Notes: generated by a model from the sequence alone, not told the origin. A stretch of 64,000 nucleotides of DNA from Lytechinus pictus (GCF_037042905.1 NC_087251.1:23004001-23068000); one strand, 5' to 3'; shown: positions 347 through 42,775, numbered from the stretch's first letter. Program-made: numbers and translations.

Positions 347-448
347 TTGACTGCACTGCTGGCAACCCTTGTCTCAATGGAGGTACTTGTGAGGAGAACG
401 ATACATGCACATGTACTAGTGGATTTAATGGAGATGTGTGTCAAACAG
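347..448 (+). pseudogene. B-type EGF exon with mutated donor (G|TTACCA)
   Basis: tgtag acceptor, DCTAGNPCLNGGTCEENDTCTCTSGFNGDVCQT, then TT instead of GT; in-frame TAA at 475-477. Confidence 0.7.
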
Positions 449-1252
449 TTACCAACTTTGTTTATTTCAATATATAAAATGACCTCTGTGACATTTGCCC
501 TTTGACCTCGTGAAGCTAAATTTTGTCAGATCATTTGAACTCACATATGCAAACAAAAGCCAAATTTAAAGTGTTCCCCTCAAAAGGATTTATAGTAAGC
601 GCGAGAACGAAAACGGGACAGAAGGAAAAACGACCCGAAAATATAGTGGGGAGATGCATAACAGTCTTCTGCAGCCATGAAGTATCCCCCTTGAATTAAA
701 AACCAATTCATCCTTTAAATTCATAAATTTTTTCCTTTAAGTTAAGCAATAAATCCATATTTGATTCATTGCCCTAATTTCTGCTTACTTTTTTAAAACC
801 TTATTTTCATACAAATTTTACGTGTACTCCATTTAACTTATAATGGGTCTTTTTGAGCTCTTTTATAGTATTAAGTTGTGTACAGCGTCAAAAAATGATT
901 GGTTAGGTTCCATTTCTTTATGGTGTAATAGCTTAAAAACAACAATATGACATTAAAAGTTGACTGTTTCATTTTTTTTTCCACCATGCTGAAATTCAGC
1001 ACACATGTTTCCTGCAATATGAATTTACGAGCCTGAATATTAATAATATTCAATATCAGATAAATTAAAATATCATGCCTTCAAAAATCTTGTAAATGTG
1101 GCATACTTCAATAAGTTTCCATTAAGATATCTTTATAACCTATTAATTTATTTTCATTATGAAGATATGCAATATACATGCATACATACACACCAAGAAC
1201 TTCATTTTCTACCGTCTATCTTTCTCGATATCATTTTCCTCTCTCTCTCTAG

Positions 1253-1351
1253 TTTCCTGTACTGACGGCAACCCTTGTATGAATGGAGCTACTTGTGAGA
1301 ACGACACGTGTTCATGTTCTGAGGGATTGACTGGAGTTCTATGTGATACAA
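1253..1351 (+). CDS. EGF exon, type A
   Basis: ctag acceptor, SCTDGNPCMNGATCENDTCSCSEGLTGVLCDT, A|gtatgt; 99 nt, phase 1-1. Confidence 0.85.
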
Positions 1352-3010
1352 GTATGTAGTTCTAACAAACCTCATTACAAAGGGGTGACTTTCTTATTAA
1401 GGAAGCTTACCTTAAAAAAATACAATTTACAGTAGATCTAGTGCATAAAGAATACCGAAATGTGACATTGATTTTCTCGTAAATTTCTTGTGGGAAACGG
1501 TCAATATATGACCCCATGAATGCATAATTTGCCCTATTGGAGTCAGTATATTATTTGCCTAGTAGTCATATTTTGGGTCGTATATATACATATATATATA
1601 TACCCACACAAACACACACACACACACACATATATATATATTTATATACACACATAAAATATGATTATATCTTTTTCTCAGTCGCAGGCTCTGTCTCTCT
1701 TTCCCACACCCTCACAAAATAACCTTTTCACTAACCCTCTATGTAGTTGACTGCACTGCTGGCAACCCTTGTCTCAATGGAGGTACTTGTGAGGAGAACG
1801 ATACATGCACATGTACTAGTGGATTTAATGGAGATGTGTGTCAAACAGTTACCAACTTTGTTTATTTCAATATATAAAATGACCTCTGTGACATTTGCCC
1901 TTTGACCTCGTGAAGCTAAATTTTGTCAGATCATTTGAACTCACATATGCAAACAAAAGCCAAATTTAAAGTGTTCCCCTCAAAAGGATTTATAGTAAGC
2001 GCGAGAACGAAAACGGGACAGAAGGAAAAACGACCCGAAAATATAGTGGGGAGATGCATAACAGTCTTCTGCAGCCATGAAGTATCCCCCTTGAATTAAA
2101 AACCAATTCATCCTTTAAATTCATAAATTTTTTCCTTTAAGTTAAGCAATAAATCCATATTTGATTCATTGCCCTAATTTCTGCTTACTTTTTTAAAACC
2201 TTATTTTCATACAAATTTTACGTGTACTCCATTTAACTTATAATGGGTCTTTTTGAGCTCTTTTATAGTATTAAGTTGTGTACAGCGTCAAAAAATGATT
2301 GGTTAGGTTCCATTTCTTTATGGTGTAATAGCTTAAAAACAACAATATGACATTAAAAGTTGACTGTTTCATTTTTTTTTCCACCATGCTGAAATTCAGC
2401 ACACATGTTTCCTGCAATATGAATTTACGAGCCTGAATATTAATAATATTCAATATCAGATAAATTAAAAAATCATGCCTTCAAAAATCTTGTAAATGTG
2501 GCATACTTCAATAAGTTTCCATTAAGATATCATCTTTATAACCTATTAATTTATTTTCATTATGAAGATATGCAATATACATGCATACATACACACCAAG
2601 AACTTCATTTTCTACCATCTATCTTTCTCGATATCATTTTCCTCTCTCTCTCTCTAGTTTCCTGTACTGACGGCAACCCTTGTATGAATGGAGCTACTTG
2701 TGAGAACGACACGTGTTCATGTTCTGAGGGATTGACTGGAGTTCTATGTGATACAAGTATGTAGTTCTAACAAACCTCATTACAAAGGAGTGACTTTCTT
2801 ATTAAGGAAGCTTACCTTAAAAAATACAATTTACAGTAGATCTAGTGCATAAAGAATACCGAAATGTGACATTGATTTTCTCGTAAATTTCTTGTGGGAA
2901 ACGGTCAATATATGACCCCATGAATGCATAATTTGCCCTATTGGAGTCAGTATATTATTTGCCTAGTAGTCATATTTTGGGTCGTATATATACATATATA
3001 TATACCCCCC

Positions 3011-3043
<33 letters not shown>

Positions 3044-6000
3044 TTATATACACACATAAAATATGATTATATCTTTTTCTCAGTCGCAGGCTCTGTCTCT
3101 CTTTCCCACACCCTCACAAAATAACCTTTTCACTAACCCTCTATGTAGTTGACTGCACTGCTGGCAACCCTTGTCTCAATGGAGGTACTTGTGAGGAGAA
3201 CGATACATGCACATGTACTAGTGGATTTAATGGAGATGTGTGTCAAACAGTTACCAACTTTGTTTATTTCAATATATAAAATGACCTCTGTGACATTTGC
3301 CCTTTGACCTCGTGAAGCTAAATTTTGTCAGATCATTTGAACTCACATATGCAAACAAAAGCCAAATTTAAAGTGTTCCCCTCAAAAGGATTTATAGTAA
3401 GCGCGAGAACGAAAACGGGACAGAAGGAAAAACGACCCGAAAATATAGTGGGGAGATGCATAACAGTCTTCTGCAGACATGAAGATCCCCCTTGAATTAA
3501 AAACCAATTCATCCTTTAAATTCATAAATTTTTTCCTTTAAGTTAAGCAATAAATCCATATTTGATTCATTGCCCTAATTTCTGCTTACTATTTTAAAAC
3601 CTTATTTTCATACAAATTTTACGTGTACTCCATTTAACTTATAATGGGTCTTTTTGAGCTCTTTTATAGTATTAAGTTGTGTACAGCGTCAAAAAATGAT
3701 TGGTTAGGTTCCATTTCTTTATGGTGTAATAGCTTAAAAACAACAATATGACATTAAAAGTTGACTGTTTCATTTTTTTTTCCACCATGCTGAAATTCAG
3801 CACACATGTTTCCTGCAATATGAATTTACGAGCCTGAATATTAATACTATTCAATATCAGATAAATTAAAAAATCATGCCTTCAAAAATCTTGTAAATGT
3901 GGCATACTTCAATAAGTTTCCATTAAGATATCATCTTTATAACCTATTAATTTATTTTCATTATGAAGATATGCAATATACATGCATACATACACACCAA
4001 GAACTTCATTTTCTACCATCTATCTTTCTCGATATCATTTTCCTCTCTCTCTCTAGTTTCCTGTACTGACGGCAACCCTTGTATGAATGGAGCTACTTGT
4101 GAGAACGACACGTGTTCATGTTCTGAGGGATTGACTGGAGTTCTATGTGATACAAGTATGTAGTTCTAACAAACCTCATTACAAAGGAGTGACTTTCTTA
4201 TTAAGGAAGCTTACCTTAAAAAAATACAATTTACAGTAGATCTAGTGCATAAAGAATACCGAAATGTGACATTGATTTTCTCGTAAATTTCTTGTGGGAA
4301 ACGGTCAATATATGACCCCATGAATGCATAATTTGCCCTATTGGAGTCAGTATATTATTTGCCTAGTAGTCATATTTTGGGTCGTATATATACATATATA
4401 TATACCCACACACACACACACACACACATACATATATATTTATATACACACATAAAATATGATTATATCTTTTTCTCAGTCGCAGGCTCTGTCTCTCTTT
4501 CCCACACCCTCACAAAATAACCTTTTCACTACCCTCTATGTAGTTGACTGCACTGCTGGCAACCCTTGTCTCAATGGAGGTACTTGTGAGGAGAACGATA
4601 CATGCACATGTACTAGTGGATTTAATGGAGATGTGTGTCAAACAGTTACCAACTTTGTTTATTTCAATATATAAAATGACCTCTGTGACATTTGCCCTTT
4701 GACCTCGTGAAGCTAAATTTTGTCAGATCCTTTGAACTCACATATGCAAACAAAAGCCAAATTTAAAGTGTTCCCCTCAAAAGTATTTATAGTAAGCGCG
4801 AGAACGAAAACGGGACAGAAGGAAAAACGACCCGAAAATATAGTGGGGAGATGCATAACAGTCTTCTGCAGCCATGAAGTATCCCCCTTAAATTAAAGAC
4901 CAATTCATCCTTCAAATTCATATATTTTTCCTTTAAGGTAAGCAATAAATCCATATTTGATTCATTGCGCTAATTTCTGCTTACTATTTTAAAACCTTAT
5001 TTTCATACAAATTTTACGTGTACTCCATTCAACTTATGCGTCTTTTTGAGCTCTTTTATAGTATTAAAAGCTGTGTACAGCGTCAAAAATGATTGGTTAG
5101 GTTCCATTTCTTTATGGTGTAATAGCTTAAAACAACAATATAATGACATTATGAATTCATACTTGTGCCCATATCTCTTTCTTTCGTTCTTTCTCTATTG
5201 CTATCTCTATTTAGTTTCCTGTAGTGGCAACAGCCCTTGTATGAATGGAGCATCCTGTGAGAACGACGCGTGTTCATGCTCTGTGGGATTGACTGGAGAT
5301 CTGTGTGAAACAAGTATGAATTTCTAACACATCTTATTAAAATGAGTGTATGTGTGTGGTTTTCCATTTTGGTACTGTTTGACCAAACGCATTTTACGTG
5401 TTAAAGCCAAAATCGCATCCTGATGTCATTACGGAGGCCGCGTAGAAATGGAAAGTGAATTTCACTAACACGGGGAAGAAGACCCTCCCAACACATCCAC
5501 CATCCTGTCGGTCTTTTCCCTCTATTTGGGGGGGGGGGGCGGGGTAAAATAAATGAAATCATGATTTTCACAAAAAATCATGCACACACACACAAAGACA
5601 CAAAACAAAAAACTGCCATCTTTCCTGCGTACTATGGTAAACGGCAACCAAGAGTTAAGACAACTCACAGCTGTCTTAAAGTTTGGGGAAACTTTTTAGC
5701 CATTTGTATTTATGGAATACATACTGACTGCAGTTTCCAGAAACGTTACTTATCCATACATCCTAAATCAGTCTCAAAGGCGCAAAAACTCTTAGTCAAA
5801 TTCTAAGATACACGTTTTGGCTCATTTTTTGTTTGCCTTCGACAGAAAATAGGACAAACCGCTTAGATTTTCGACTCAATCATGCTTATACCATTTATGG
5901 AATACGGGCCCCGATCGTAAAAAGTATACATAAAGAATATATAGGTCAGGTACAGAGTGGTATGATCAACGTGCCTTCCTTTTGTTGACAATCAGTCAAC

Positions 6001-6824
6001 GTAATTTGTTTTCAAAGTTAAAAAAACATGAAATGAAGACAACTTAGGCGTTTTGATCTCTTACTTAGTCGCGTTAGTATTATGAAAATGTGATCCGGAA
6101 CAGAGTCTCAATTCGGCCTATTACCCTTAAGTTTTCTGATAAATTTCTCCGTCAAGGAAATTAAAGAAAAAATATCACTGTTTGATATGCTGCCCTTATT
6201 TCTGTTACTTTTGACTCGTTTTCTTCCTGATAAGAAGGTTTATTTACACTCGAAATAATAATTGTAAATGCCCTGTAAAACTTTTGTTTAAATCAAAATA
6301 TGCCTTGTTTAACTTAAGATTTGTATTATTTTCTTCCGATATTGAGTCATGTGCGTATTCAACAGTAATTGATAAGGATCAATTTTCTTATGGTGTAATA
6401 ACGACGAAATAAAAACTAAGTTCGTTTCTACCCTCTATCTTTCTCGATATCAATTTCTTCTCTCTCTCTTTAGTTTCTTGTACTGACGGCAACCCTTGTA
6501 TAAATGGAGCTACTTGTGAGAACGACACGTGTTCATGTTCTGAGGGATTGACTGGAGATCTCTGTGATACAAGTATGAAGTTCTAACAATCCTTATCTAA
6601 TAAGAAAAGTCGCTATTCTTACCTTTCCTTGTTAACAAAAACTTACCCTTTATGTGTTTTAAAATAATTTTTAAATACATTTAGTGCATATAGAACATCG
6701 AAGTGTGGCAAAATAAAATTTCCTAATCTTTTTTTTTAGAGTTGAGAATTTTTGACATCAAATTTCGAAAGCGCATGATAAAATGTCTCCACAACCTACA
6801 TTGTGGGAATCGGTAAATTTCGGC

Positions 6825-6859
<35 letters not shown>

Positions 6860-9800
6860 CTTCATGAATACATAATTGGCCCTATTGGAGTCAGTATATT
6901 ATTTGCCTAGTAGTCATATTTTGGGTCGTATATATAAAAAAAAAATATATATATATATATATATACATAAAATATGATTATATCTGGCAACCCTTGTCTC
7001 AATGGAGGTACTTGTAAGGAAAAGGATACATGCACATGTACTAGTGGTTTTAATGGAGATGTGTGTCAAACAGGTACCAACTTTGTTTATTTCAATATAT
7101 AAAATGACCTCTGTGACATTTGCCCTTTGACCTCGTAAAGCTAAGTTTTGTCAGATCATTTGAACTCACATATGCAAACAAACGCCAAATTTAAAGTGTT
7201 CCCCTCAAAAGGATTTATAGTAATCGCGAGAACGAAAACGGGACAGAAGGAAAAACGACCCGAAAATATAGCGGGGAGATGCATAACAGTCTTCTGCAGC
7301 CATGAAGTATCCCCCTTAAATTAAAGACCAATTCATCCTTCAAATTCATATATTTTTCCTTTAAGTTAAGCAATAAATCCATATTTGACTCATTGCCCTA
7401 ATTTCTGCTTACTTTTTTAAAACCTTATTTTCATACAAATTATACGTGTACTCCATTTAACTTATAATGGGTCTTTTTTAGCTCTTTTATAGTATTAAGT
7501 TGTGTACAGCGTCAAAAATGATTGGTTAGGTTCCATTTCTTTATGGTGTAATAGCTTAAAAACAACAATATGACATTAAAAGTTGACTGTTTCATTTTTT
7601 TTCTCACCATGCTGAAATTCAGCACACATGTTTCATGCAATATGAATATAGAGCCTGAATATTAATAATATTCAATATTAGATGAATTAAAAAATCATGC
7701 CTTCACAAATCTTGTAAATATGTCATACTTCAATAAGTTTCCATTAAGGTATCATCTTTATAACCTATTAATTTATTTTCTTTATCAATATATGCAATAT
7801 ACATGCATACATACACACCCATAACTTCATTTTCTACCATCTATCTTTCTCGATATCATTTTTCTCTCTCTCTCTAGTTTCCTGTACTGACGGCAACCCT
7901 TGTATGAATAGAGTTACTTGTGCGAACAACGCGTGTCCATGTTCTGCGGGGTTGACTGGAGTTCTATGTGATGCAAGTATGTAGTTCTAACAAACCTCTT
8001 TACAAAGGAGTGGCTTCCTTATTAAGGAAGCTTACCTTAAAAAAATACAATTTACAGTAGACCTAGTGCATAAAGAATACCGAAATGTGACATTGATTTT
8101 CTCGTAAATTTCTTGTGGGAAACGGTCAATATATGACCACATGAATGCATAATTTGCCCTATTGGAGTCAGAATATTATTTGCCTAGTAGTCATATTTTG
8201 GGTCGTATATATACATATATATATACCCCCCCCCCCCACACACACACACACACATATATATATATTTATATACACACATAAAATATGATTATATCTTTTT
8301 CTCAGTCGCAGGCTCTGTCTCTCTTTCCCACACCCTCACAAAATAACCTTTTCACTAACCCTCTATGTAGTTGACTGCACTGCTGGCAACCCTTGTCTCA
8401 GTGGAGGTACTTGTGAGGAGAACGATACATGCACTTGTACTAGTGGATTTAATGGAGATGTGTGTCAAACAGTTACCAACTTTGTCTATTTCAATATATA
8501 AAATGACCTCTGTGGCATTTGCCCTTTGACCTCGTGAAGCTAAGTTTTTTCAGATCATTTGAACTCACATATGCAAACAAACGCCAAATTTAAAGTGTTC
8601 CCCTCAAAAGGATTTATAGTAATCGCGAGAACGAAAACAGGACAGAAGGAAAAACGACCCGAAAATATAGCGGGGAGATGCATAACAGTCTTCTGCAGCC
8701 ATGAAGTATCCCCCTTGAATTAAAAACCAATTCATCCTTTAAATTCATATATTTTTCCTTTAAGTTAAGCAATAAATCCATATTTGATTCATTGCCCTAA
8801 TTTCTGCTTACTTTTTTAAAACCTTATTTTCATACAAATTTTACGTGTACTCCATTTAACTTATAATGGGTCTTTTTGAGCTCTTTTATAGTATTAAGTT
8901 GTGTACAGCGTCAAAAATGATTGGTTAGGTTCCATTTCTTTATGGTGTAATAGCTTAAAAACAACAATATGACATTAAAAGTTGACTGTTTCATTTTTTT
9001 TTCCACCATGCTGAAATTCAGCACACATGTTTCCTGCAATATGAATTTACGAGCCTGAATATTAATAATATTCAATATCAGATAAATTAAAATATCATGC
9101 CTTCAAAAATCTTGTAAATGTGGCATACTTCAATAAGTTTCCATTAAGATATCATCTTTATAACCTATTAATTTATTTTCTTTATGAAGATATGCAATAT
9201 ACATGCATACATACACACCAAGAACTTCATTTTCTACCATCTATCTTTCTCGATATCATTTTCCTCTCTCTCTCTAGTTTCCTGTACTGACGGCAACCCT
9301 TGTATGAATGGAGCTACTTGTGAGAACGACACGTGTTCATGTTCTGAGGGATTGACTGGAGTTCTATGTGATACAAGTATGTTGTTCTAACAAACCTTAT
9401 TACAAAGGAGTGACTTTCTTATTAAGGAAGCTTACCTTAAAAAAATACAATTTACAGTAGATCTAGTGCATAAAGAATACCGAAATGTGACATTGATTTT
9501 CTCGTAAATTTCTTGTGGGAAACGGTCAATATATGACCCCATGAATGCATAATTTGCCCTATTGGAGTCAGTATATTATTTGCCTAGTAGTCATATTTTG
9601 GGTCGTATATATACATATATATATACCCACACACACACACACACACACATACATATATATTTATATACACACATAAAATATGATTATATCTTTTTCTCAG
9701 TCGCAGGCTCTGTCTCTCTTTCCCACACCCTCACAAAATAACCTTTTCACTACCCTCTATGTAGTTGACTGCACTGCTGGCAACCCTTGTCTCAATGGAG

Positions 9801-12141
9801 GTACTTGTGAGGAGAACGATACATGCACATGTACTAGTGGATTTAATGGAGATGTGTGTCAAACAGTTACCAACTTTGTTTATTTCAATATATAAAATGA
9901 CCTCTGTGACATTTGCCCTTTGACCTCGTGAAGCTAAATTTTGTCAGATCCTTTGAACTCACATATGCAAACAAAAGCCAAATTTAAAGTGTTCCCCTCA
10001 AAAGGATTTATAGTAAGCGCGAGAACGAAAACGGGACAGAAGGAAAAACGACCCGAAAATATAGTGGGGAGATGCATAACAGTCTTCTGCAGCCATGAAG
10101 TATCCCCCTTAAATTAAAGACCAATTCATCCTTCAAATTCATATATTTTTCCTTTAAGGTAAGCAATAAATCCATATTTGATTCATTGCGCTAATTTCTG
10201 CTTACTATTTTAAAACCTTATTTTCATACAAATTTTACGTGTACTCCATTCAACTTATGCGTCTTTTTGAGCTCTTTTATAGTATTAAAAGCTGTGTACA
10301 GCGTCAAAAATGATTGGTTAGGTTCCATTTCTTTATGGTGTAATAGCTTAAAACAACAATATAATGACATTATGAATTCATACTTGTGCCCATATCTCTT
10401 TCTTTCGTTCTTTCTCTATTGCTATCTCTATTTAGTTTCCTGTAGTGGCAACAGCCCTTGTATGAATGGAGCATCCTGTGAGAACGACGCGTGTTCATGC
10501 TCTGTGGGATTGACTGGAGATCTGTGTGAAACAAGTATGAATTTCTAACACATCTTATTAAAATGAGTGTATGTGTGTGGTTTTCCATTTAGGTACTATT
10601 TGACCAAACGCATTTTACGTGTTAAAGCCAAAATCGCATCCTGATGTCATTACGGAGGCCGCGTAGAAATGGAAAGTGAATTTCACTAACACGGGGAAGA
10701 AGACCCTCCCAACACATCCACCATCCTGTCGGTCTTTTCCCTCTATTTGGGGGGGGGGCGGGGTAAAATAAATGAAATCATGATTTTCACAAAAAATCAT
10801 GCACACACACACAAAGACACAAAACAAAAAACTGCCATCTTTCCTGCGTACTATGCTAAACGGCAACCAAGAGTTAAGACAACTCACAGCTGTCTTAAAG
10901 TTTGGGGAAACTTTTTAGCCATTTGTATTTATGGAATACATACTGACTGCAGTTTCCAGAAACGTTACTTAGCCATACATCCTAAATCAGTCTCAAAGGC
11001 GCAAAAACTCTTAGTCAAATTCTAAGATACACGTTTTGGCTCATTTTTTGTTTGCCTTCGACAGAAAATAGGACAAACCGCTTAGATTTTCGACTCAATC
11101 ATGCTTATACCATTTATGGAATACGGGCCCCGATCGTAAAAAGTATACATAAAGAATCTATAGGTCAGGTACAGAGTGGTATGATCAACGTGCCTTCCTT
11201 TTGTTGACAATCAGTCAACGTAATTTGTTTTCAAAGTTAAAAAAACATGAAATGAAGACAACTTATAGCGTTTTGATCTCTTACTTAGTCGCGTTAGTAT
11301 TATGAAAATGTTATCCGGAACAGAGTCTCAATTCGGCCTATTACCCTTAAGTTTTCTGATAAATTTCTCCGTCAAGGAAATTAAAGAAAAAATATCACTG
11401 TTTGATATGCTGCCCTTATTTCTGTTACTTTTGACTCGTTTTCTTCCTGATAAGAAGGTTTATTTACACTCGAAATAATAATTGTAAATGCCCTGTAAAA
11501 CTTTTGTTTAAATCAAAATATGCCTTGTTTAACTTAAGATTTGTATTATTTTCTTCCGATATTGAGTCATGTGCGTATTCAACAGTAATTGATAAGGATC
11601 AATTTTCTTATGGTGTTATAACGACGAAATAAAAACTAAGTTCGTTTCTACCCTCTATCAATTTCTTCTCTCTCTCTTTAGTTTCTTGTACTGACGGCAA
11701 CCCTTGTATAAATGGAGCTACTTGTGAGAACGACACGTGTTCATGTTCTGAGGGATTGACTGGAGATCTCTGTGATACAAGTATGAAGTTCTAACAATCC
11801 TTATCTAATAAGAAAAGTCGCTATTTTTACCTTTCCTTGTTAACAAAAACTTACCCTTTATGTGTTTTAAAATAATTTTTTTAATACATTTAGTGCATAT
11901 AGAACATCGAAGTGTGGCAAAATAAAATTTCCTAATTTTTTTTTCTAGAGTTGAGAATTTTTGACATCAAATTTCGAAAGCGCATGATAAAATGTCTCCA
12001 CAACCTACATTGTGGGAATCGGTAAATTTGGGCCCAATATATATATATAACTTCATGAACACATAATTGGCCCTATTGGAGTCAGTATATTATTTGCCTA
12101 GTAGTCATATTTTGGGTTGTATATATACATATATATATACC

Positions 12142-12174
<33 letters not shown>

Positions 12175-14547
12175 TTATATACACACATAAAATATGATTA
12201 TATCTTTTTCTCAGTCGCAGGCTCTGTCTCTCTTTCCCACACCCTCACAAAATAACCTTTTCACTAACCCTCTATGTAGTTGACTGCACTGCTGGCAACC
12301 CTTGTCTCAATGGAGGTACTTGTGAGGAGAACGATACATGCACATGTACTAGTGGATTTAATGGAGATGTGTGTCAAACAGTTACCAACTTTGTTTATTT
12401 CAATATATAAAATGACCTCTGTGACATTTGCCCTTTGACCTCGTGAAGCTAAATTTTGTCAGATCCTTTGAACTCACATATGCAAACAAAAGCCAAATTT
12501 AAAGTGTTCCCCTCAAAAGGATTTATAGTAAGCGCGAGAACGAAAACGGGACAGAAGGAAAAACGACCCGAAAATATAGTGGGGAGATGCATAACAGTCT
12601 TCTGCAGCCATGAAGTATCCCCCTTAAATTAAAGACCAATTCATCCTTCAAATTCATATATTTTTCCTTTAAGGTAAGCAATAAATCCATATTTGATTCA
12701 TTGCGCTAATTTCTGCTTACTATTTTAAAACCTTATTTTCATACAAATTTTACGTGTACTCCATTCAACTTATGCGTCTTTTTGAGCTCTTTTATAGTAT
12801 TAAAAGCTGTGTACAGCGTCAAAAATGATTGGTTAGGTTCCATTTCTTTATGGTGTAATAGCTTAAAACAACAATATAATGACATTATGAATTCATACTT
12901 GTGCCCATATCTCTTTCTTTCGTTCTTTCTCTATTGCTATCTCTATTTAGTTTCCTGTAGTGGCAACAGCCCTTGTATGAATGGAGCATCCTGTGAGAAC
13001 GACGCGTGTTCATGCTCTGTGGGATTGACTGGAGATCTGTGTGAAACAAGTATGAATTTCTAACACATCTTATTAAAATGAGTGTATGTGTGTGGTTTTC
13101 CATTTTGGTACTGTTTGACCAAACGCATTTTACGTGTTAAAGCCAAAATCGCATCCTGATGTCATTACGGAGGCCGCGTAGAAATGGAAAGTGAATTTCA
13201 CTAACACGGGGAAGAAGACCCTCCCAACACATCCACCATCCTGTCGGTCTTTTCCCTCTATTTGGGGGGGGGCGGGGTAAAATAAATGAAATCATGATTT
13301 TCACAAAAAATCATGCACACACACACAAAGACACAAAACAAAAAACTGCCATCTTTCCTGCGTACTATGCTAAACGGCAACCAAGAGTTAAGACAACTCA
13401 CAGCTGTCTTAAAGTTTGGGGAAACTTTTTAGCCATTTGTATTTATGGAATACATACTGACTGCAGTTTCCAGAAACGTTACTTAGCCATACATCCTAAA
13501 TCAGTCTCAAAGGCGCAAAAACTCTTAGTCAAATTCTAAGATACACGTTTTGGCTCATTTTTTGTTTGCCTTCGACAGAAAATAGGACAAACCGCTTAGA
13601 TTTTCGACTCAATCATGCTTATACCATTTATGGAATACGGGCCCCGATCGTAAAAAGTATACATAAAGAATCTATAGGTCAGGTACAGAGTGGTATGATC
13701 AACGTGCCTTCCTTTTGTTGACAATCAGTCAACGTAATTTGTTTTCAAAGTTAAAAAAACATGAAATGAAGACAACTTATAGCGTTTTGATCTCTTACTT
13801 AGTCGCGTTAGTATTATGAAAATGTTATCCGGAACAGAGTCTCAATTCGGCCTATTACCCTTAAGTTTTCTGATAAATTTCTCCGTCAAGGAAATTAAAG
13901 AAAAAATATCACTGTTTGATATGCTGCCCTTATTTCTGTTACTTTTGACTCGTTTTCTTCCTGATAAGAAGGTTTATTTACACTCGAAATAATAATTGTA
14001 AATGCCCTGTAAAACTTTTGTTTAAATCAAAATATGCCTTGTTTAACTTAAGATTTGTATTATTTTCTTCCGATATTGAGTCATGTGCGTATTCAACAGT
14101 AATTGATAAGGATCAATTTTCTTATGGTGTAATAACGACGAAATAAAAACTAAGTTCGTTTCTACCCTCTATCAATTTCTTCTCTCTCTCTTTAGTTTCT
14201 TGTACTGACGGCAACCCTTGTATAAATGGAGCTACTTGTGAGAACGACACGTGTTCATGTTCTGAGGGATTGACTGGAGATCTCTGTGATACAAGTATGA
14301 AGTTCTAACAATCCTTATCTAATAAGAAAAGTCGCTATTTTTACCTTTCCTTGTTAACAAAAACTTACCCTTTATGTGTTTTAAAATAATTTTTTAAATA
14401 CATTTAGTGCATATAGAACATCGAAGTGTGGCAAAATAAAATTTCCTAATTTTTTTTTCTAGAGTTGAGAATTTTTGACATCAAATTTCGAAAGTGCATG
14501 ATAAAATGTCTCCACAACCTACATTGTGGGAATCGGTAAATTTCGGC

Positions 14548-14580
<33 letters not shown>

Positions 14581-17500
14581 CTTCATGAACACATAATTGG
14601 CCCTATTGGAGTCAGTATATTATTTGCCTAGTAGTCATATTTTGGGTCGTATATATAGATATATATATACCCACACACACACACACACATATATATATTT
14701 ATATACACACATAAAATATGATTAGATCTTTTTCTTAGTCGCAGGCTCTGTCTCTCTTTCCTACACCCTCACAAAATAACCTTTTCACTAACCCTCTATG
14801 TAGTTGACTGCACTGCTGGCAACCCTTGTCTCAATGGAAGTACTTGTGAGGAGAACGATACATGCACTTGTACTAGTGGATTTAATGGAGATGTGTGTCA
14901 AACAGTTACAAACTTTGTCTATTTCAATATATAAAATGACCTCTGTGGCATTTGCCCTTTGACCTCGTGAAGCTAAGTTTTTTCAGATCATTTGAACTCA
15001 CATATGCAAACAAACGCCAAATTTAAAGTGTTCCCCTCAAAAGGATTTATAGTAATCGCGAGAAAAAAAACGGGACAGAAGGAAAAACGACCCGAAAATA
15101 TAGCGGGGAGATGCATAACAGTCTTCTGCAGCCATGAAGTATCCCCCTTAAATTAAAGACCAATTCATCCTTCAAATTCATATATTTTTCCTTTAAGTTA
15201 AGCAATAAATCCATATTTGATTCATTGCCCTAATTTCTGCTTACTTTTTTAAAACCTTATTTTCATACAAATTTTACGTGTACTCCATTTAACTTATAAT
15301 GGGTCTTTTTGAGCTCTTTTATAGTATTAAGTTGTGTACAGCGTCAAAACTGATTGGTTAGGTTCCATTTCTTTATGGTGTAATAGCTTAAAAGCAACAA
15401 CATGACATTAAAAGTTGACTGTTTCATTTTTTTTCTCACTATGCTGAAATTCAGCACACATGTTTCCTGCAATATGAATATAGAGCCTGAATATTAATAA
15501 TATTCAATATTAGATGAATTAAAAAATCATGCCTTCACAAATCTTGTAAATATGTCATACTTCAATAAGTTTCCATTAAGATATCATCTTTATAACCTAT
15601 TAATTTATTTTCTTTATGAAGATATGCAATATACATGCATACATACACACCCATAACTTCATTTTCTACCATCTATCTTTCTCGATATCATTTTTCTCTC
15701 TCTCTCTAGTTTCCTGTACTGACGGCAACCCTTGTATGAATGGAGTTACTTGTGCGAACGACGCGTGTCCATGTTCTGCGGGGTTGACTGGAGTTCTATG
15801 TGATGCAAGTATGTAGTTCTAACAAACCTCTTTACAAAGGAGTGGCTTCCTTATTCAGGAAGCTTACCTTAAAAAAATACAATTTACAGTAGACTTAGTG
15901 CATAAAGAATACCAAATTGTGACGACATTGATTTTCTCGTAAATTTCTTGTGGGAAACGGTTAATTGGGGCCTAATATATGACCTCATGATCGCATAATT
16001 TGCCCTATTGGAGTCAGTATATTATTTGCCTAGTAGTCATATTTTGGGTCGTATATATACATATATATATACCCACACACACACATACATATATATATTT
16101 ATATACACACATAAAATATGATTATATCTTTTTCTCAGTCGCAGGCTCTGTCTCTCTTTCCCACACCCTCACAAAATAACCTTTTCACTAACCCTCTATG
16201 TAGTTGACTGCACTGCTGGCAACCCTTGTCTCAGTGGAGGTACTTGTGAGGAGAACGATACATGCACTTGTACTAGTGGATTTAATGGAGATGTGTGTCA
16301 AACAGTTACCAACTTTGTCTATTTCAATATATAAAATGACCTCTGTGACATTTGCCCTTTGACCTCGTGAAGCTAAGTTTTGTCAGATCATTTGAACTCA
16401 CATATGCAAACAAACGCCAAATTTAAAGTGTTCCCCTCAAAAGGATTTATAGTAATCGCGAGAAGGAAAAACGACCCGAAAATATAGCGGGGAGATGCAT
16501 AACAGTCTTCTGCAGCCATGAAGTATCCCCCTTAAATTAAAGACCAATTCATCCTTCAAATTCATATATTTTTCCTTTAAGTTAAGCAATAAATCCATAT
16601 TTGATTCATTGCCCTAATTTCTGCTTACTTTTTTAAAACCTTATTTTGATACAAATTTTACGTGTACTCCATTTAACTTATAATGGGTCTTTTTGAGCTC
16701 TTTTATAGTATTAAGTTGTGTACAGCGTCAAAACTGATTGGTTAGGTTCCATTTCTTTATGGTGTAATAGCTTAAAAACAACAATTTAATGACATTAAAA
16801 GTTGATTGTATCATCTCTCTTTCTGTCACCATGTTCTTTCAATCTCTCTCTCTCGCTATCTCTATTTAGTTTCATGTATGGCCGGCAACCCTTGTATGAA
16901 TGGAGCTACCTGTGCTAACGACGCGTGTACATGTTCTGCAGGATTGACTGGAGATCTGTGTGAAACAAGTATGAAGTTCCAACACATTTCATCATAATGA
17001 GTGGATGTTTGCTTTTCCATATTTGTACTGTTCGACCTAACGGATATACTAACAGAAATGGACTGTCTGCCATTTATTGATAACTTTATCACTATGTAGT
17101 CTGATTTTAAGGTTTTTTTTTACCGTGCTGAAATTCGGCACACATGTTGCTTGAGAAAGTAAGATGCAAGCCTGATTAAAAATAGTAATAATCGGTATCT
17201 GACAAAAATGAAACGATGTTTTAAAATTATACCTCAAAATCAAATTTGTTTATTTCATGTCATATTGAATAAGTTTCCTTTCAATATCATCTCTATAACC
17301 TGTTAATTGATTTTTATCTTTAAGATATTCCAAACTATATACAAGGCTTTGATAGGTGTGATACAGACAGGCATGATCAACGTGTCTACCCTCCGTTCAA
17401 TATCAGTCAACGTGGGTTTTCACATAGTACAATTAAAAATGAATCTCTTTCCTGGTAGTGTTAGCATTATGAATATAATAACAGGAACAGAGTATTTCTG

Positions 17501-20500
17501 TGGTCAAATGCTTTTTCTGATTAATTTCTCCTTTAAGCAAATTTAAGAAAAAAGGAGTAATCACTATTTGATATGATGCTCTTATTTCTGCTTACTTATG
17601 ACTCGGTTTCTTCCTGATAAGCAGGTTAGTTTATACTTGATATGACGTAATACTTGTAATTACCATGTTTAAAGGCCCGGTCCCACTGCACTTGCAGATG
17701 TAGAGAGGATGTAAAACTGAAAAAAATATTGCCTTCCGTTGGAAAACGTTATGTATCCGTTATGTACTCTTCGTATACGTGTTTCATACGCTTTATATCC
17801 ATCGAGCATCCGTCCACTGTGATTTCATTGTTCACCCATTTTGTCCATTATCTGGAGCGGATAAAAACGGATGGAGCCACCCCGAAATTTTGTTTGTCCA
17901 CTGTATCGGTTCTGAATACGTTTGGTGTCCGTCGGCCTGTGGGACCAGGCCTTTAACTTAAGATCTATGGTTTTTTTTTCCACTGTTGAGTCATGTGCGT
18001 TTTTAAAAATAATTGATAAAAGTCAATTTTCTTATGGTTTAATAACAACGAAATAGAAAATTAATCAATTTTTACATTCTGTCTTTCACGATATCATTCT
18101 CTCTCTCTCTCTCTCTCTCTCTTCCTCTCTCTAGTTTCCTGTTCTACCGGCAACCCTTGTATGAACACAGGTACCTGTGAGAACGACGCATGTTCATGTT
18201 CTGCTGGATTGTCTGGAAATATGTGTGACTTATTTATAATGAGTGTCTATTTTTCGATTTTCCTTACTCAGGAAACTTAACTTACCTTTATAAATATTCC
18301 TCTCTATCTCTTTTTTTTGCATTTCAGCATTTTTTACACCATATTTCCGTGGCGCATGATGAAATAATTGTACAACCTAATATATGACCGCGTGAATATA
18401 TAAATTAGTCCTGTAGGAGTCAATGTATTATTTGCCTCGTAGTCATATATTTGGTCGTATATATACATGATTACGTCTTTTTCTCAGTCGCAGTCTTTTT
18501 TTTCTACCCCCTTTCGCACACCCTCATACAATAACCCCCTTTCCCACACCCTCATACAATAACCTTTTCACTATTCCTCTATGTAGTTAACTGCACTGCT
18601 GGCAACCCTTGTCTGTACGGAGGTACTTGTGAGGAGAACGATACATGTACATGTACTACCGGCTTAACCGCAGATGTATGTCAAACAGGTACCAACTTTT
18701 TTTAATTCATTATACGAAATGACCTCTGTGACATTTACCAATTTGACCTCGTGAATCCAAAGTTTGTCATATTATTTGAACTCGGATATGCGTGCAAAAT
18801 CAGAGTTTGGAGTTTACCCCTCAAAAGTTTCTCAGTTATCGCGAGAACGAAAACGGAACAGAAGGACGAACGACCCGAAAATATGTTTCCGGCAATCAGT
18901 TACAGTTGGCAGCGGCATAAAAGTCTTCTGTAGCCACGTACGATCCCCCTTAAGGACGTTCCAAAGTTATGTTTGTGCGCATTATGATCTGCGCATATTT
19001 TACACTCTGCGCGCTGACGTCACAATGGATGAACAGGTGATTAATTAGCTGTGGGTATGAGCTGATTTTTCTCATCATCTGCACTCTAACTGCAGATCCG
19101 ATGCGTTATTTTATGAAGCTAAAAAATTTGAATTATTCCATGGACCATTTTAAAAATACCTCTACAATTTCAAAATACTTTACTCTGCAGTGCTGCCAAA
19201 AATCACGTATATGACCCCGAGTTTGAATAAATGGTAGAGTGATTTTGATTTTTTCTTCACATAGATACAAAGCATTTGGGGCATTTTTGGTGTTTTAAAA
19301 AGCACATTTGCTCAAATAAAAATGCTGATAGTTTGAAAACAAGCACATGAACCCCTATTTTTTAATGTTTGTACCTCTTAGATATACCTTCCTCTACAAC
19401 TTTGCAAATTTTGGTGAAAATGACATGGATTTTGAATAAAGTGCAGCATTTATTGTACTTTTGTAGTTTGTTTTTGAAATTTCACATTTTTGAAATTGGG
19501 TTTTTGTTATCTTTTACGTCATTTTCAAGATCTGGCAGTGCTGTTAGACTTAAAATTGCAAACAAATAGCACTATGAATAGATTCTCCATTCTAACGATA
19601 CAATTATTAACTCTCTTGCGAAATTTGATGACTTTTTCATGTATTCTGACTGAGTAATAGAGGTTTAAACTCATTGTAGTGATCTTGCGAGGTCTAAAAA
19701 TGCCAAATTCTTTTGAATGCGCAATTCTTAAGAACATCAATTTGGGTGAACTTTGAAGCTTTATAGCAAAAAATGAAGCACATGGACCTATGTTAATTTT
19801 TGCCTATTTCGAATATTAAGGTTCTAAAGTATCTATGTGCAAAGTTTGGTGAAAATGACATGGATTTCACTTTAACTGTGGAACGTCCTTAAATCAAAGA
19901 CCATTTCATCCTTTCATCCTACAATGATCGTAGAAAGTTAAAAAGTAATTAGTACCATCTTTAATTTCCAATAGATTTTTTCCTTGAAGCTAAGAAATAA
20001 ATCCAGTTTTGATACGCTGCCCTAATTTCTGCTTACTTTTTAACTTTTTTTTTAATATCGCATTTGCCTCTGATAATCACATCCTTAAGCACCATGAATA
20101 AGCCTTATGAATTCATACTTGTGCCCCATTAAACTAATAATGAGTCTTTTTGATAGTATTAAAGGTTGTGTACAGTCCAAAAATAATCAATTTCCGTATG
20201 GTGTAATAGTTTAACAACAAGAATATAATGAACTTAAAGGTTGATTTGCACGAACTCTCTTTCTGTCTCCACTTTTATTTTTTCTCTCTCGTTCCCCCCC
20301 CCCAATCTCTGTTTTTAGTTCCCCCCCCCCAACATTACCAAAGTTTGTTGACCCTAAATGACCTTTGACCTTGGTCATGTGACCTGAAATTAGCACAGGA
20401 TGTTCAAGGATACTTGATTGCTCTTATGTCCAAGTTTCATGAACTAGATCCATAAAATTTCAAAGTTGTGATGACAATTCCTTAAATACCCCCAATATGG

Positions 20501-23500
20501 CCAAAGTTCGTTGACCCTTAGTGACCTTTGACCTTTGTCATGTGACGTGAAACTCAGGCAGGATATTAAGTAATACTTGATTAATCTTATGTTCAAGTTT
20601 CATGAACTAGGTACATATACTTTCTAAGTTATGATGACATTTCAAAAACTCAACCTTGGTTAAGATTTCAATGTTGACGACGCCGCCGTCGCCACCGCCG
20701 CCGTCGGAAAAGCGGCGCCTATAGTCTCGCTCTGCTATGCAAGACAAAAACTTACTGATGAGAATGTGAAAGGTATTTCGCAAGAACGAAGAAGAAGAAC
20801 GTACGACCCGAAAATATGCCTCCCGCAATAAGTCGGATTTTTAAAACATTACTTTATGCATGTTATTGAATATTTTGCATGTCAACAGGACCATGTTGAA
20901 AAACAAAGTATATTATCTGAACATGTTACCTTGTATAAAGATTTTTCATAAATGAATGAATAAATAAATTAGCTCCACTGGATGAAGGCATAAAAATCGT
21001 CGGTAGCCACGTACGACCCCCCTTAAATTATAGTCAAATCCATATTATGACAATCGTATAAGATTTAAACAGGCAGTAGTACCCCCTTCGAATTCTGATA
21101 AATTCTTCATTAAAGCTACGAAAAAAGTTTGATACAATAACAATAATTGGTTATGATCAATTTTCTTTACCCAAAATAGCCCAAGCTATTGTAAAATTAT
21201 ATAGACCGGAAAGGGGGGGGGGGGCTTTTTTGCCTCCCTCTAGTCTCGGTCGTTGATGGTCTAATCGCGCCGAAAATTGTCACGCACGTCACTTATGACG
21301 TGATATTCCACATAATGCATTGGACATTCAATTTTACCACAATTATTCAATTTTATGTAATTAATCATGCTAATTTATGCATGGAATTATACTTAAATAT
21401 TGCTCCAAAAGTGCTTTAAAAAATTTAGACTCTAAAAGCTATTTTGAGAATTCTTATGAAAAGTATATTAAAAAATAGCGACATCAATTTTTCTATGATT
21501 TTATTCATCTTATGTATTCTTTGTTTTTCGACTTTATGTATTTTTCCATGGAAATTGTCAGCGACACTATTTCAGTCAATAATAACATGAAATCAACTGT
21601 TTTTAATTATCAATGAAAAGTTGATGAAGTTTGGCAACATACAGAATTCACAGTTCATTTGTAGATGAAATCATACTTTTGAGCAATTTCAGGTCTGACA
21701 AGCACTTACGAAAATGTTGCGTATCTTCGGAACCGCGTAACCCTGCGTTGTGAATTTGGTCTTATAAGTTGCGCGAGACTTGATGAAAAGTCATGAAACG
21801 TTGCGACACAATCTTTTCGCGTAACAGGTTTATCGCGAAAAACATCGAGGGGGTGCTTTTTTACCCCCCTCCGACTAGATAGGGTTAAGGCGTAATAACG
21901 TAATCACAATATAATGAAATTAAGTTAATTTATACATTATCTCATTCTGTTTCCCAGTTCTTTCTCTCTCTGTCAGTTTTCTATATTTTAGGTCTTTATT
22001 ATTTCAATTAATCCCCAAAGGAGTGGGATATTTTGGATGATGATCGTTTGTTTCTAACGCGGTTAATAATAAATGCGAATATAATGTACAATATAGAGCG
22101 CAGATGTACATCATTACGTCATAAATAGCTACATGCAAGTTGCAATTCTATGATCAAACTGACCCTAGGAAGCGAGGCAATACTAACTGATAATGTAATT
22201 GACACGATTTGCACAATCACTTTTTAGGGCGAGGGGTTGGATAATAATTTTATTGAATGAATTTATTACATAGAATACCAGAAATAGTCCACTCATTATT
22301 GACCCAAACTCTTGGAATATTTCTGGAAGCCCATTATGGGCCATCTAATATAATATCAATGTAGAAAATTTATGCCTGAACATATCATCTTTTCATTCAT
22401 TTGATGTCAAAATTCATGTGTTTCCTTCAGTTGTCATCTCCATAACATTCTCAATGAATTTTCACGAGTTTTTTCACGAGCATGTCTAGCGATGCTTTAT
22501 CTATACATTCGGCATGTGGTCTTGAAGCTTGTGCGACATAAAAAGAAAACTCGTTTTATTTCCACACCTTGGCTGCTGTGAGATTTAGTATTAAGGAATA
22601 AAGACAGAAATGTCCACTGTTCGTTCAAAATTAGTCATTTTTATTGGTCTTCATTCACGTAAATACAAAATAAAAACAACTCCTAACGTCTTGAACCATT
22701 GACGACATCTCTGCTGATCGTGTTAGAATTATACATAATACAAGCTTGGACAGATTTTACTTCGACCTATCTCTATTTTGCCATGTTTGTTGTCCAATAT
22801 TCATTTTCATCGTGTATCACTTTTGAAATAATTTGTATAGTTTGTCTAAATATGATGTATATAATGTAATCTTACAATTACGATTAAAGAACAGTTAAAA
22901 TTTGCTGGCAATTTTAACCAGTGTTTTCTAATCGCAGTGGAATGGGAGTTTTAGCCCTAATACAGAATTGCATGTTATCAAGGTTATCACGATATCAAAA
23001 TGCTAGATATACAAATTATTTCTGGACATATGTATATGGATAACTAAAAACATTGCAATTCAAAACGACCCGAATTCGACTCGCAAGATTTATATACTGT
23101 GATCACTCACTGAGACGTTTTAAATCATCCTTAACTTACAAATTAAAGTGTTAATAAATAAAGGATTTTAATTTCTTAATTTCTCTATCTTAGTTACGTG
23201 TAGTGGTGGTAATCCTTGTCAGAACGGAGTTACCTGTTCAAACGATGCGTGCCCATGCCCTTCGGGATTAACGGGAGAACTCTGTGACACAGGTATGAAA
23301 TGTATACACTTCTACACTGCTTTGTACAAGAGGGACGTTATAAGTATTCAAAAGAGTAAATAACGCTGATTCACTGTCCAAGAGACTGACAGATCGAAGT
23401 ACCTAAATTTCCCCAACGTCAATAAGAAGCTAACTCTCAACTAGTGATGATAATCGGCCACTGGTTATGTGTGAATGTACGAGTTTTATATGTTAGCCTC

Positions 23501-31378: not shown

Positions 31379-31409
<31 letters not shown>

Positions 31410-42755: not shown

Positions 42756-42769
42756 CTGAATGAACTGAA

Positions 42770-42775
42770 AATAAA
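42770..42775 (+). terminator. Candidate polyadenylation signal
   Basis: AATAAA 15 nt after the stop; several later AATAAA are equally possible. Confidence 0.25.

What the first reader, a model, noticed from the sequence alone, without database searches (positions are those of the whole stretch)
347..16334. Nine amplified EGF exons with a dead donor that read into a stop: silent passengers or a ladder of alternative last exons
Seen: B exons at 347, 1747, 3149, 4544, 8371, 9765, 12280, 14804 and 16204 keep the acceptor AG and all six Cys. They end ACAG|TTAC where relatives at 7073, 18688 and 23849 have ACAG|GTACC. Read-through gives VTNFVYFNI-stop (TAA 475-477), and AATAAA lies ~270 nt further on in each unit (748-753). 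The shifted ACA|GTTACC site would frameshift. Inference: full-length GPI protein needs all nine skipped. Occasional use as last exons would give a graded series of secreted EGF polymers from the same gene. Caveat: the AATAAA is also present downstream of the intact copy (~19996), so it predates the mutation and may be incidental.
Basis: partly seen in the sequence, partly recalled or inferred. Interest (0 to 1): 0.75.

Follow-up and report, generated by a model that had tools for sequence, protein, structure and literature searches.

The report
Dead duplicated exons in urchin gene
Nine copies of a broken exon ride along in a young tandem repeat inside a sea-urchin cell-surface gene, and the RNA data examined show them being skipped, so this looks like ordinary exon decay rather than a new way of making secreted proteins.

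Summary
In detail: nine 102-nt EGF exons (B) have GT>TT donors, read through to a stop, and have a downstream AATAAA. They lie in a sea-urchin (Lytechinus pictus) gene predicted as signal peptide, 36 one-exon EGF modules, SEA-like, Ly6/uPAR-like and GPI-like tail.

RNA laid on one A-B-C unit shows A>A and A>C junctions that skip B, in one raw-read run (20 reads) and two contig runs. No junction enters or leaves a dead B, and depth over the read-through and AATAAA is zero apart from a 36-nt dispersed-repeat match. Reads entering B are intact paralogues.

The 7073 relative is also dead (88-nt acceptor deletion, 3 copies). The array has at least five independent exon-killing lesions. All its exons are phase 1-1, so skipping keeps the frame. 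The stop and AATAAA are chance-level, and the nine copies share one mutation.

Verdict: silent passengers amplified with a live neighbour; the secreted ladder is unsupported. Limits: depth about 25, the raw-read animal carries other array alleles, contigs drop rare forms, and no 3'-end or DNA reads were laid. Minor or tissue-specific use stays possible (about 7%).

The parts
347..448 (+). B pseudo-exon (EGF, phase 1-1), acceptor intact, donor GT>TT
1747..1848 (+). B pseudo-exon, donor GT>TT
3149..3250 (+). B pseudo-exon, donor GT>TT
4544..4645 (+). B pseudo-exon, donor GT>TT
8371..8472 (+). B pseudo-exon, donor GT>TT; N>S variant
9765..9866 (+). B pseudo-exon, donor GT>TT; the copy on which RNA was laid; skipped by joint 9376>10436
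12280..12381 (+). B pseudo-exon, donor GT>TT
14804..14905 (+). B pseudo-exon, donor GT>TT; G>S variant
16204..16305 (+). B pseudo-exon, donor GT>TT; N>S variant
6984..7073 (+). B remnant with intact GT donor but an 88-nt deletion of the acceptor and first 12 exon bases (two more such copies upstream of the window)
748..753 (+). AATAAA in the intron after B (one per B unit; homologue at 19996 after the intact exon); no RNA depth over the homologous site at 10165
959..1005 (+). scar of a ~300-nt deletion that removed a whole E-type EGF exon; the same scar at 2359, 3760, 7582, 8981, 15414 and twice upstream (8 in all)
1253..1351 (+). live A-type EGF exon (99 nt); identical copies at 2658, 4057, 9278; variants A' at 7878 and 15710
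   Evidence: A>A and A>C joints
5215..5313 (+). live C-type EGF exon; identical copies at 10436 and 12951
6474..6572 (+). live D-type EGF exon; identical copies at 11682 and 14196
   Evidence: C>D joint
16870..16968 (+). E-type EGF exon with intact sites
   Evidence: joint best read as E>18587
18135..18227 (+). F pseudo-exon: donor removed by a ~20-nt deletion
   Evidence: skipping inferred from the X17 joint
18587..18688 (+). intact B-family EGF exon (AG ... CAG|GTACC), present in RNA contigs: the positive control
   Evidence: (loose end equals its 3' end)
20234..20330 (+). orphan acceptor region homologous to that of exon E, followed by a 163-bp repeat; no exon found behind it
23194..32881 (+). 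ten older EGF exons with intact AG/GT (23194, 23751, 24500, 25119, 27982, 29151, 30026, 30595, 31883, 32783)
   Evidence: the last four are in P0001
33785..35312 (+). two exons (33785-33897, 35099-35312) of a SEA-like domain; the first ends at a GC donor
   Evidence: Pfam SEA E=0.035, below the curated cut-off
37633..40206 (+). short Cys exon 37633-37680, EGF exons 38483-38593 and 39317-39418, linker exon 40193-40206
41177..42755 (+). last two coding exons (41177-41290, 42501-42755): Ly6/uPAR-like Cys domain and hydrophobic GPI-signal-like tail, stop 42753-42755

Best explanation
B is a dead duplicated exon (pseudo-exon) that is skipped. The gene encodes a cell-surface protein with a stalk of one-exon EGF modules, all phase 1-1, so dropping any one leaves the frame open (shown). 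An ancestral three-exon unit (B, C/E, A/D/F types) was tandemly duplicated. One B copy took a single +1 G>T donor change and another lost its acceptor. Unequal exchange then amplified the units for, or along with, their live A/C/D exons, carrying the dead B along (inferred from sequence). Without a donor, exon definition fails, the intact AG is passed over, and the spliceosome joins A>A, A>C and so on (skipping shown; the mechanism follows from established splicing knowledge). The product is one membrane-tethered protein of about 1,470 aa with 36 EGF modules (inferred; only five junction types of this part were seen). The stop and AATAAA behind B are ordinary AT-rich intron sequence.
For: Raw stranded RNA run X21 (41 reads laid): depth about 20 on A and 12-15 on C; joints A>A 8, A>C 12 (GT..AG, skips 1059 nt), C>A/D 11. 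Depth is zero in all six bins from 9871 to 10392.

The only X21 reads on B are 3 reads that begin TTA and carry 9777 C>A, the letters of the intact upstream paralogue rather than of dead B. They account for all letters in the first B bin (47.9 against 48) and, at about 25 bases each, the second.

Contig runs X17 and X1 show the same A>A, A>C and C>D joints with reference A-type letters at 9362/9366. Their pieces over the B acceptor are the intact exon 18587 (X17) and the intact upstream pair (X1), and these explain that bin fully. Intact B-family exons are thus spliced in while dead B is not.

At least five independent exon-killing lesions lie in the same array: B donor change, B acceptor deletion, whole-exon deletion (8 scars), F donor deletion, and an AG>AT acceptor upstream. 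The stop and AATAAA are at chance level.
Against: Depth is low: 0 of 20 listed joints out of A gives a one-sided 95% bound of only 14%. About 6 in 100 of each raw run was read, and X23 gave 0 reads (no test). The X21 animal carries different array alleles (9362 T>A in 23 of 24 reads; 9357 T>C in 7 of 20, a letter in none of the 22 reference exons compared), so it may not carry these B copies. Logan contigs drop rare forms. In X17, 271 of 1140 depth-letters in bin 9784-9870 are not explained by listed pieces, because 15 pieces were not shown; short matches to intact paralogues could supply them, but this was not verified. Tissue and stage of the runs are unknown. Substitution counts do not separate dead from live exons (B 5 non-synonymous and 3 synonymous; A/D 11 and 3), so neutrality of B is not shown.
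Confidence: 0.8

Rival explanations
1. Composite terminal exons. Loss of the donor removes U1 protection, the B acceptor is sometimes used, and the transcript is cleaved at the intronic AATAAA. This gives up to nine secreted EGF polymers of graded length, perhaps in one tissue or stage.
For: Acceptor, open frame, stop and AATAAA are all present. Donor-side variants do cause composite-terminal-exon intronic polyadenylation in human tumours (PMC8501991, passages). The RNA test is shallow.
Against: No joint into dead-type B, zero depth over the read-through to 10392 apart from a 36-nt dispersed-repeat match, and no end pile-up, in 3 informative runs. Nine templates should have made the signal easier to see. 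Stop and AATAAA are chance-level and predate the mutation. Three sister B copies were killed at the acceptor instead, which removes any last-exon use. The same paper says such polyadenylation follows only a small share of splice-site variants.
Confidence: 0.07
2. B is skipped, but its loss was selected rather than neutral. The B module or an over-long stalk was disfavoured, so only units with a dead B could amplify.
For: 12 of 12 young B copies are dead by two separate lesions, no intact copy of this subtype survives in the assembly, and none was seen in RNA from three runs. A third B-like exon upstream also has a dead acceptor.
Against: Non-B exons died too (F, the deleted E, the orphan acceptor at 20320). 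B has no odd feature: six Cys and an open frame. Close B-family exons (87-88% identical) are expressed. Two lesions fixed in one small array are compatible with drift and homogenisation.
Confidence: 0.08
3. B is partly included through a frame-preserving internal donor (GAG|GTACTT after base 36), which adds a two-Cys half module.
For: The site scores as many matches to the U1 consensus (7 of 11, my crude count) as the native B-family donor, and keeps the frame.
Against: No joint from 9800 or any other internal B position, and no dead-type B letters at the acceptor in the laid RNA.
Confidence: 0.03
4. The T is an assembly or consensus error and B is a normal exon.
For: No raw DNA reads were laid, and the change is GGT>GTT inside a near-identical array.
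Against: T co-occurs with the intact acceptor in 9 of 9 copies and G with the deletion in 3 of 3, among copies that carry other private variants. RNA with reference-type A letters skips B, which a working donor would not predict, since exon 18587 with the same donor sequence is spliced in.
Confidence: 0.02

Closest known systems
Splice-site variants inside the LPA KIV-2 coding tandem repeat (PMC4378929 and PMC7613587, passages)
   Same: A donor +1 change inside one unit of a young, copy-variable array of Cys-rich domains, with variants spread among copies by duplication or conversion.
   Different: In LPA the +1G>A in a single copy goes with a null allele. Here one exon is one whole phase 1-1 domain, so skipping is tolerated and the dead copy was amplified nine times.
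SNV-associated intronic polyadenylation / composite terminal exons (PMC8501991, passages)
   Same: A donor mutation with a downstream polyadenylation signal is exactly the anatomy of B.
   Different: The defining RNA signature (coverage running from the exon into the intron, then dropping) is absent.
Tandemly duplicated alternative terminal exons such as Drosophila pip, and tandem exon duplications in general (PMC9013439, passages)
   Same: Clusters of homologous exons made by intragenic tandem duplication, some unannotated and little used.
   Different: pip-type clusters are used as mutually exclusive last exons. B copies alternate with constitutive exons upstream of the true last exon, and no use was seen.
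Strongylocentrotus purpuratus EGF/SEA-like/Ly6-like proteins (XP_030855055.1, XP_011662621.1, XP_030855196.1, XP_030855056.1, XP_030854203.1)
   Same: Same C-terminal Cys domain and hydrophobic tail; 40-49% identity to P0001 over aligned parts, with Cys invariant.
   Different: Their database models are short (126-234 aa, few EGFs; they may be incomplete), whereas this gene has 36 intact and at least 14 dead EGF exons.
Fibropellins (NCBI's automatic name for P0001, XP_054759353.1, is fibropellin-1-like)
   Same: Sea-urchin extracellular EGF-repeat protein.
   Different: Fibropellins have CUB and avidin-like domains (recalled). Pfam finds neither in P0001, which ends in a Ly6-like domain and hydrophobic tail. 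The name reflects EGF similarity only.

Membership tests
Pseudo-exon (dead duplicated exon) | Homologous to functional exons of the same gene | tested here: met
   87-88% identical to intact exons 18587 and the upstream paralogue; Pfam EGF E=2.2e-6
Pseudo-exon (dead duplicated exon) | Lesion in an essential splice site | tested here: met
   GT>TT in 9 of 9; assembly only, no raw DNA reads laid
Pseudo-exon (dead duplicated exon) | Excluded from mature mRNA | tested here: met
   Skip joints in 3 of 4 runs laid, no inclusion joint; bound about 14% from 0 of 20 raw joints, with the haplotype caveat
Pseudo-exon (dead duplicated exon) | Released from purifying selection | tested here: inconclusive
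   5 non-synonymous and 3 synonymous variants in 12 B copies; live A/D exons show 11 and 3
Composite terminal exon / intronic polyadenylation switch | Exon's acceptor is used | tested here: not met
   No joint into a dead-type B start
Composite terminal exon / intronic polyadenylation switch | RNA coverage runs through the donor to a poly(A) site | tested here: not met
   Bins 9958-10392 zero in all runs; 9871-9957 holds only a 36-nt dispersed-repeat match in the contig runs
Composite terminal exon / intronic polyadenylation switch | Polyadenylation signal downstream | tested here: met
   AATAAA in 9 of 9 units, but 33 of 49 gaps have one
Composite terminal exon / intronic polyadenylation switch | Poly(A) ends and a secreted product | not testable with these tools
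Ly6/uPAR (LU) domain, GPI-anchored | Cys pattern from an N-terminal CxxC to a final CCxxxxCN | tested here: met
   By inspection of P0001 and the alignment; 12 Cys rather than the usual 10 (usual number recalled)
Ly6/uPAR (LU) domain, GPI-anchored | Profile match or three-finger fold | tested here: inconclusive
   No Pfam UPAR_LY6 hit and no PDB sequence hit; atlas leads at 0.83, under its 0.9 mark; models too poor to search (pLDDT 38 and 47)
Ly6/uPAR (LU) domain, GPI-anchored | GPI anchor attachment | not testable with these tools
   Ser-rich spacer and hydrophobic C-terminus seen; no predictor run
Fibropellin | C-terminal avidin-like domain (feature recalled) | tested here: not met
   No avidin hit in P0001; the C-terminus is the Cys domain
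Fibropellin | N-terminal CUB domain (feature recalled) | tested here: inconclusive
   A crude exon scan of the region upstream of the first EGF showed no CUB-like exon; that region was not scanned with Pfam

The most novel reading that the evidence does not exclude
In a tissue or stage not sampled, the nine donor-dead B exons act as composite last exons, so one amplified point mutation turns a membrane-anchored EGF-stalk gene into a source of up to nine secreted EGF polymers of graded length. A milder novelty that fits all the data: the array holds complementary dead B alleles (acceptor-dead and donor-dead, lesions about 90 nt apart), from which a crossover or conversion could regenerate a live exon, in a surface protein whose array alleles differ between animals.
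Probability: 0.07. Interest if true: 0.65.

Novelty: new member of a known kind. Interest (0 to 1): 0.17.

Why it matters
As it stands this is a tidy natural example of exon birth and death in a symmetric-exon array. At least five separate lesions have each removed an EGF module without breaking the gene, and dead exons were amplified with live ones. It is a caution for annotation, because counting EGF-like exons overstates protein length by 14 modules and automatic models can be truncated (P0001 covers only the 3' part). It also shows that donor loss plus a stop plus AATAAA is not evidence of an alternative last exon in an AT-rich genome. If the ladder were real it would be an unusual route to many secreted isoforms, and one 3'-end sequencing experiment would settle that.

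Tried and rejected
Run search: no listed holder is on record as RNA. The two contig runs used (X17, X1) behave as RNA, with spliced joints and empty introns. X23 gave 0 reads laid: no test. No DNA run was laid, so G>T rests on the assembly and on indirect RNA evidence.

A homologue search with B plus its read-through peptide found 2 proteins among 5 candidates, 65% and 58% identical and neither from this gene. This is weak evidence, since this gene's 5' part may not be in the collection.

Substitution counting could not tell dead from live exons. The tree of B units did not group the nine donor-dead copies as one clade, and the variant table is mosaic downstream of the donor, so exchange between copies blurs the order of events. 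The single origin of T is inferred from the shared site and linkage, not from the tree.

Two structure predictions were too poor to search; no fold search was run. The PDB sequence search gave nothing meaningful.

Literature searches listed no paper on this gene or on amplified donor-dead exons; two returned 0 papers, and the library lacks most subscription journals. One search listed mainly clinical pseudo-exon papers, seen as listings only. Earlier scan notes: nothing found.

Rejected: the shifted donor ACA|GTTACC (frameshift, 4 of 11 consensus matches, no joint); a mutually exclusive cluster (live exons are joined in series).
Full report
OBSERVATION. Each is 102 nt, follows an AG, keeps six Cys and ends CAG|TTAC. 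Read-through gives VTNFVYFNI-stop in 9 of 9, and each unit has an AATAAA. None of this beyond the donor change exceeds chance. A stop comes within 10 codons after 24 of 36 intact-donor EGF exons. AATAAA runs at about 1.3 per kb on either strand and sits in 33 of 49 inter-exon gaps. The nine copies differ at three exon sites, so they are one event copied, and intact cysteines are expected without selection.

THE GENE. The window is G000:C7:23004001-23068000 of an 811.7-Mb animal assembly. The last exon matches one protein at 100%, XP_054759353.1 of Lytechinus pictus, a 458-aa model that covers only the 3' part. With 80 kb of upstream DNA the gene reads as follows. There is a signal-peptide-like exon (MRVCNMIGAVLIFIII, C7:22988952) and a 24-nt exon. 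Then come 47 full-length EGF-like exons, of which 36 have intact AG and GT, plus three acceptor-deleted remnants. The 3' part has a SEA-like pair of exons (Pfam E=0.035, below cut-off), a Ly6/uPAR-like Cys domain (pattern and alignment; atlas lead only) and a hydrophobic tail. All EGF exons are multiples of three, phase 1-1. Joining the intact exons would give about 1,470 aa (inferred, and the two 5' exons were not checked in RNA). S. purpuratus has several short relatives of the C-terminal part. The B motif occurs 14 times in the assembly, all at this locus.

THE ARRAY IS FULL OF DEAD EXONS. The copy at 7073, given as a relative with GT, has lost its acceptor and first 12 bases in an 88-nt deletion, as have two copies just upstream of the window. 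So 12 of 12 young B copies are dead: 9 with intact acceptor and T, 3 with the deletion and G, and no mixed type. The B-to-A introns carry the scar of a roughly 300-nt deletion that removed a whole E-type exon, 8 times. Exon F at 18135 has lost its donor. An upstream B-like exon has AG>AT. At 20320 an orphan acceptor region runs into a 163-bp repeat. That makes at least five independent lesions, probably six. Variants downstream of the donor are mosaic across copies, which points to continuing exchange between units.

RNA TEST. One A-B-C unit without internal repeats (9001-11610) was laid with 4 of the 23 runs listed. X23 gave 0 reads. In X21 (raw, stranded, rRNA-depleted; about 6 in 100 of the run read; 41 reads laid) depth was about 20 on A and 12-15 on C. 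Joints were A>A 8, A>C 12 (GT..AG, skipping 1059 nt that hold B) and C>A/D 11. The six bins from 9871 to 10392, which hold the read-through stop and the AATAAA, had zero depth. Three reads touched B. They start TTA and carry 9777 C>A, the letters of the intact upstream paralogue, and they account for all the letters in the first B bin (47.9 against 48) and plausibly the second.

Contig runs X17 and X1 show A>A, A>C and C>D joints, and the joint contigs carry reference A-type letters; in the reference every A-A and A-C neighbour pair has a B copy between them. Their pieces over the B acceptor are exon 18587 in X17 (its loose end equals that exon's 3' end) and the intact upstream pair in X1. These explain that bin fully (355.0 against 355.2; 237.5 against 237.3). 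Their depth at 9871-9957 is a 36-nt match flanked by unrelated sequence. The X17 joint into 18587 is best read as E>18587, which skips dead exon F. Intact B-family exons with the same donor sequence are therefore spliced in, while dead B is skipped.

RESULTS AGAINST OR LIMITING. 0 of 20 raw joints bounds B entry only below about 14%. Joints with fewer than 3 reads are not listed, though the depth arithmetic leaves no room for more B reads in X21. The X21 animal has other array alleles (9362 T>A in 23 of 24 reads) and no intronic reads, so it may lack these B copies. Contigs drop rare forms. In X17, 271 of 1140 depth-letters in bin 9784-9870 come from pieces not shown; paralogue matches could supply them but this is unverified. 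Tissues are unknown, and no DNA reads were laid. Substitution counts do not show B to be freer than the live exons.

MECHANISM. Shown: the donor lesion, symmetric exons, skipping joints, and no read-through at this depth. From established splicing knowledge: an internal exon without a donor is usually not defined and is skipped. Inferred: one G>T event, later amplified by unequal exchange of 1.4-kb and larger units together with live A, C and D exons; neutrality of the loss; and a membrane-tethered full-length product. I put this at 0.80, selected loss of B at 0.08, the secreted ladder at 0.07, a cryptic in-frame donor at 0.03 and assembly error at 0.02.

COMPARISON. The ladder idea has a real precedent: donor-side variants can cause composite-terminal-exon polyadenylation (PMC8501991, passages). 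B has that anatomy but fails the RNA criteria tested. The closest genomic analogue is the LPA KIV-2 array, where a +1G>A in one copy goes with a null allele (PMC4378929 passages; PMC7613587 passages); here the one-exon, one-domain layout makes the lesion harmless. Tandem clusters of true alternative last exons exist (pip; PMC9013439 passages) but are used, and are terminal. Searches listed no paper on this gene; other papers were seen as listings only, and no supplements were opened.

VERDICT. A real feature with an ordinary explanation: dead duplicated exons hitch-hiking in a young intragenic array. New member of a known kind; interest 0.17. The ladder is not excluded at low level or in other tissues (0.07; interest 0.65 if true).

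Noticed in passing
window 6984-7073 and L009 7670-7760, 8959-9048, against the nine B copies: Two complementary dead B alleles (acceptor-deleted with G; acceptor-intact with T) sit interleaved, lesions about 90 nt apart. An exchange between them would regenerate an intact exon; no such recombinant among 12 copies.
   Followed up: partly
window 9278-9376 (run X21): The raw-read animal shows A-class exon letters unlike the reference mix (9295 A>G 11 of 24, 9331 A>G 16 of 24, 9357 T>C 7 of 20, 9362 T>A 23 of 24). The array appears polymorphic between animals, partly at amino-acid level.
   Followed up: partly
window 1253-16968, live A/D and C/E exons: Variants among live copies are mostly non-synonymous (A/D 11 against 3; C/E 11 against 5; site ratio about 3.5), so constraint outside the cysteines looks relaxed, or diversifying.
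   Followed up: partly
window 33897/33898: The first SEA-like exon ends at a GC donor (ACG|GCAAGT), consistent with the junction in P0001.
   Followed up: no
L009 667-768 (C7:22994667-22994768): B-like EGF exon with acceptor AG>AT and donor CGG|GTACC: another probable pseudo-exon; not tested in RNA.
   Followed up: partly
window 20234-20330 and 21924-21968: Intron-end sequences homologous to those before EGF exons but with no exon behind them; the first runs into a 163-bp repeat.
   Followed up: partly
window 18940-19890 and 35360-36300: Two similar copies of a roughly 950-bp element inside introns of the gene (seen by eye).
   Followed up: no
window 25650-26420: Intronic stretch that looks like a decayed LINE reverse-transcriptase fragment on the minus strand (by eye; recognition recalled, not tested).
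   Followed up: no
window 20326-20643, 55600-56406 and L009 2930-3720: Recurring 163/192-bp repeat family ending in a GCC-rich tail; another copy in reverse at about 33130-33500.
   Followed up: no
window 42756-46770: Possible long 3' UTR; AATAAA at about 42955 and 46765. The true end was not determined.
   Followed up: no
window 62916-63157 and 63873-64000: 72-bp and 57-bp period tandem repeats in a more GC-rich end of the window, possibly coding.
   Followed up: no
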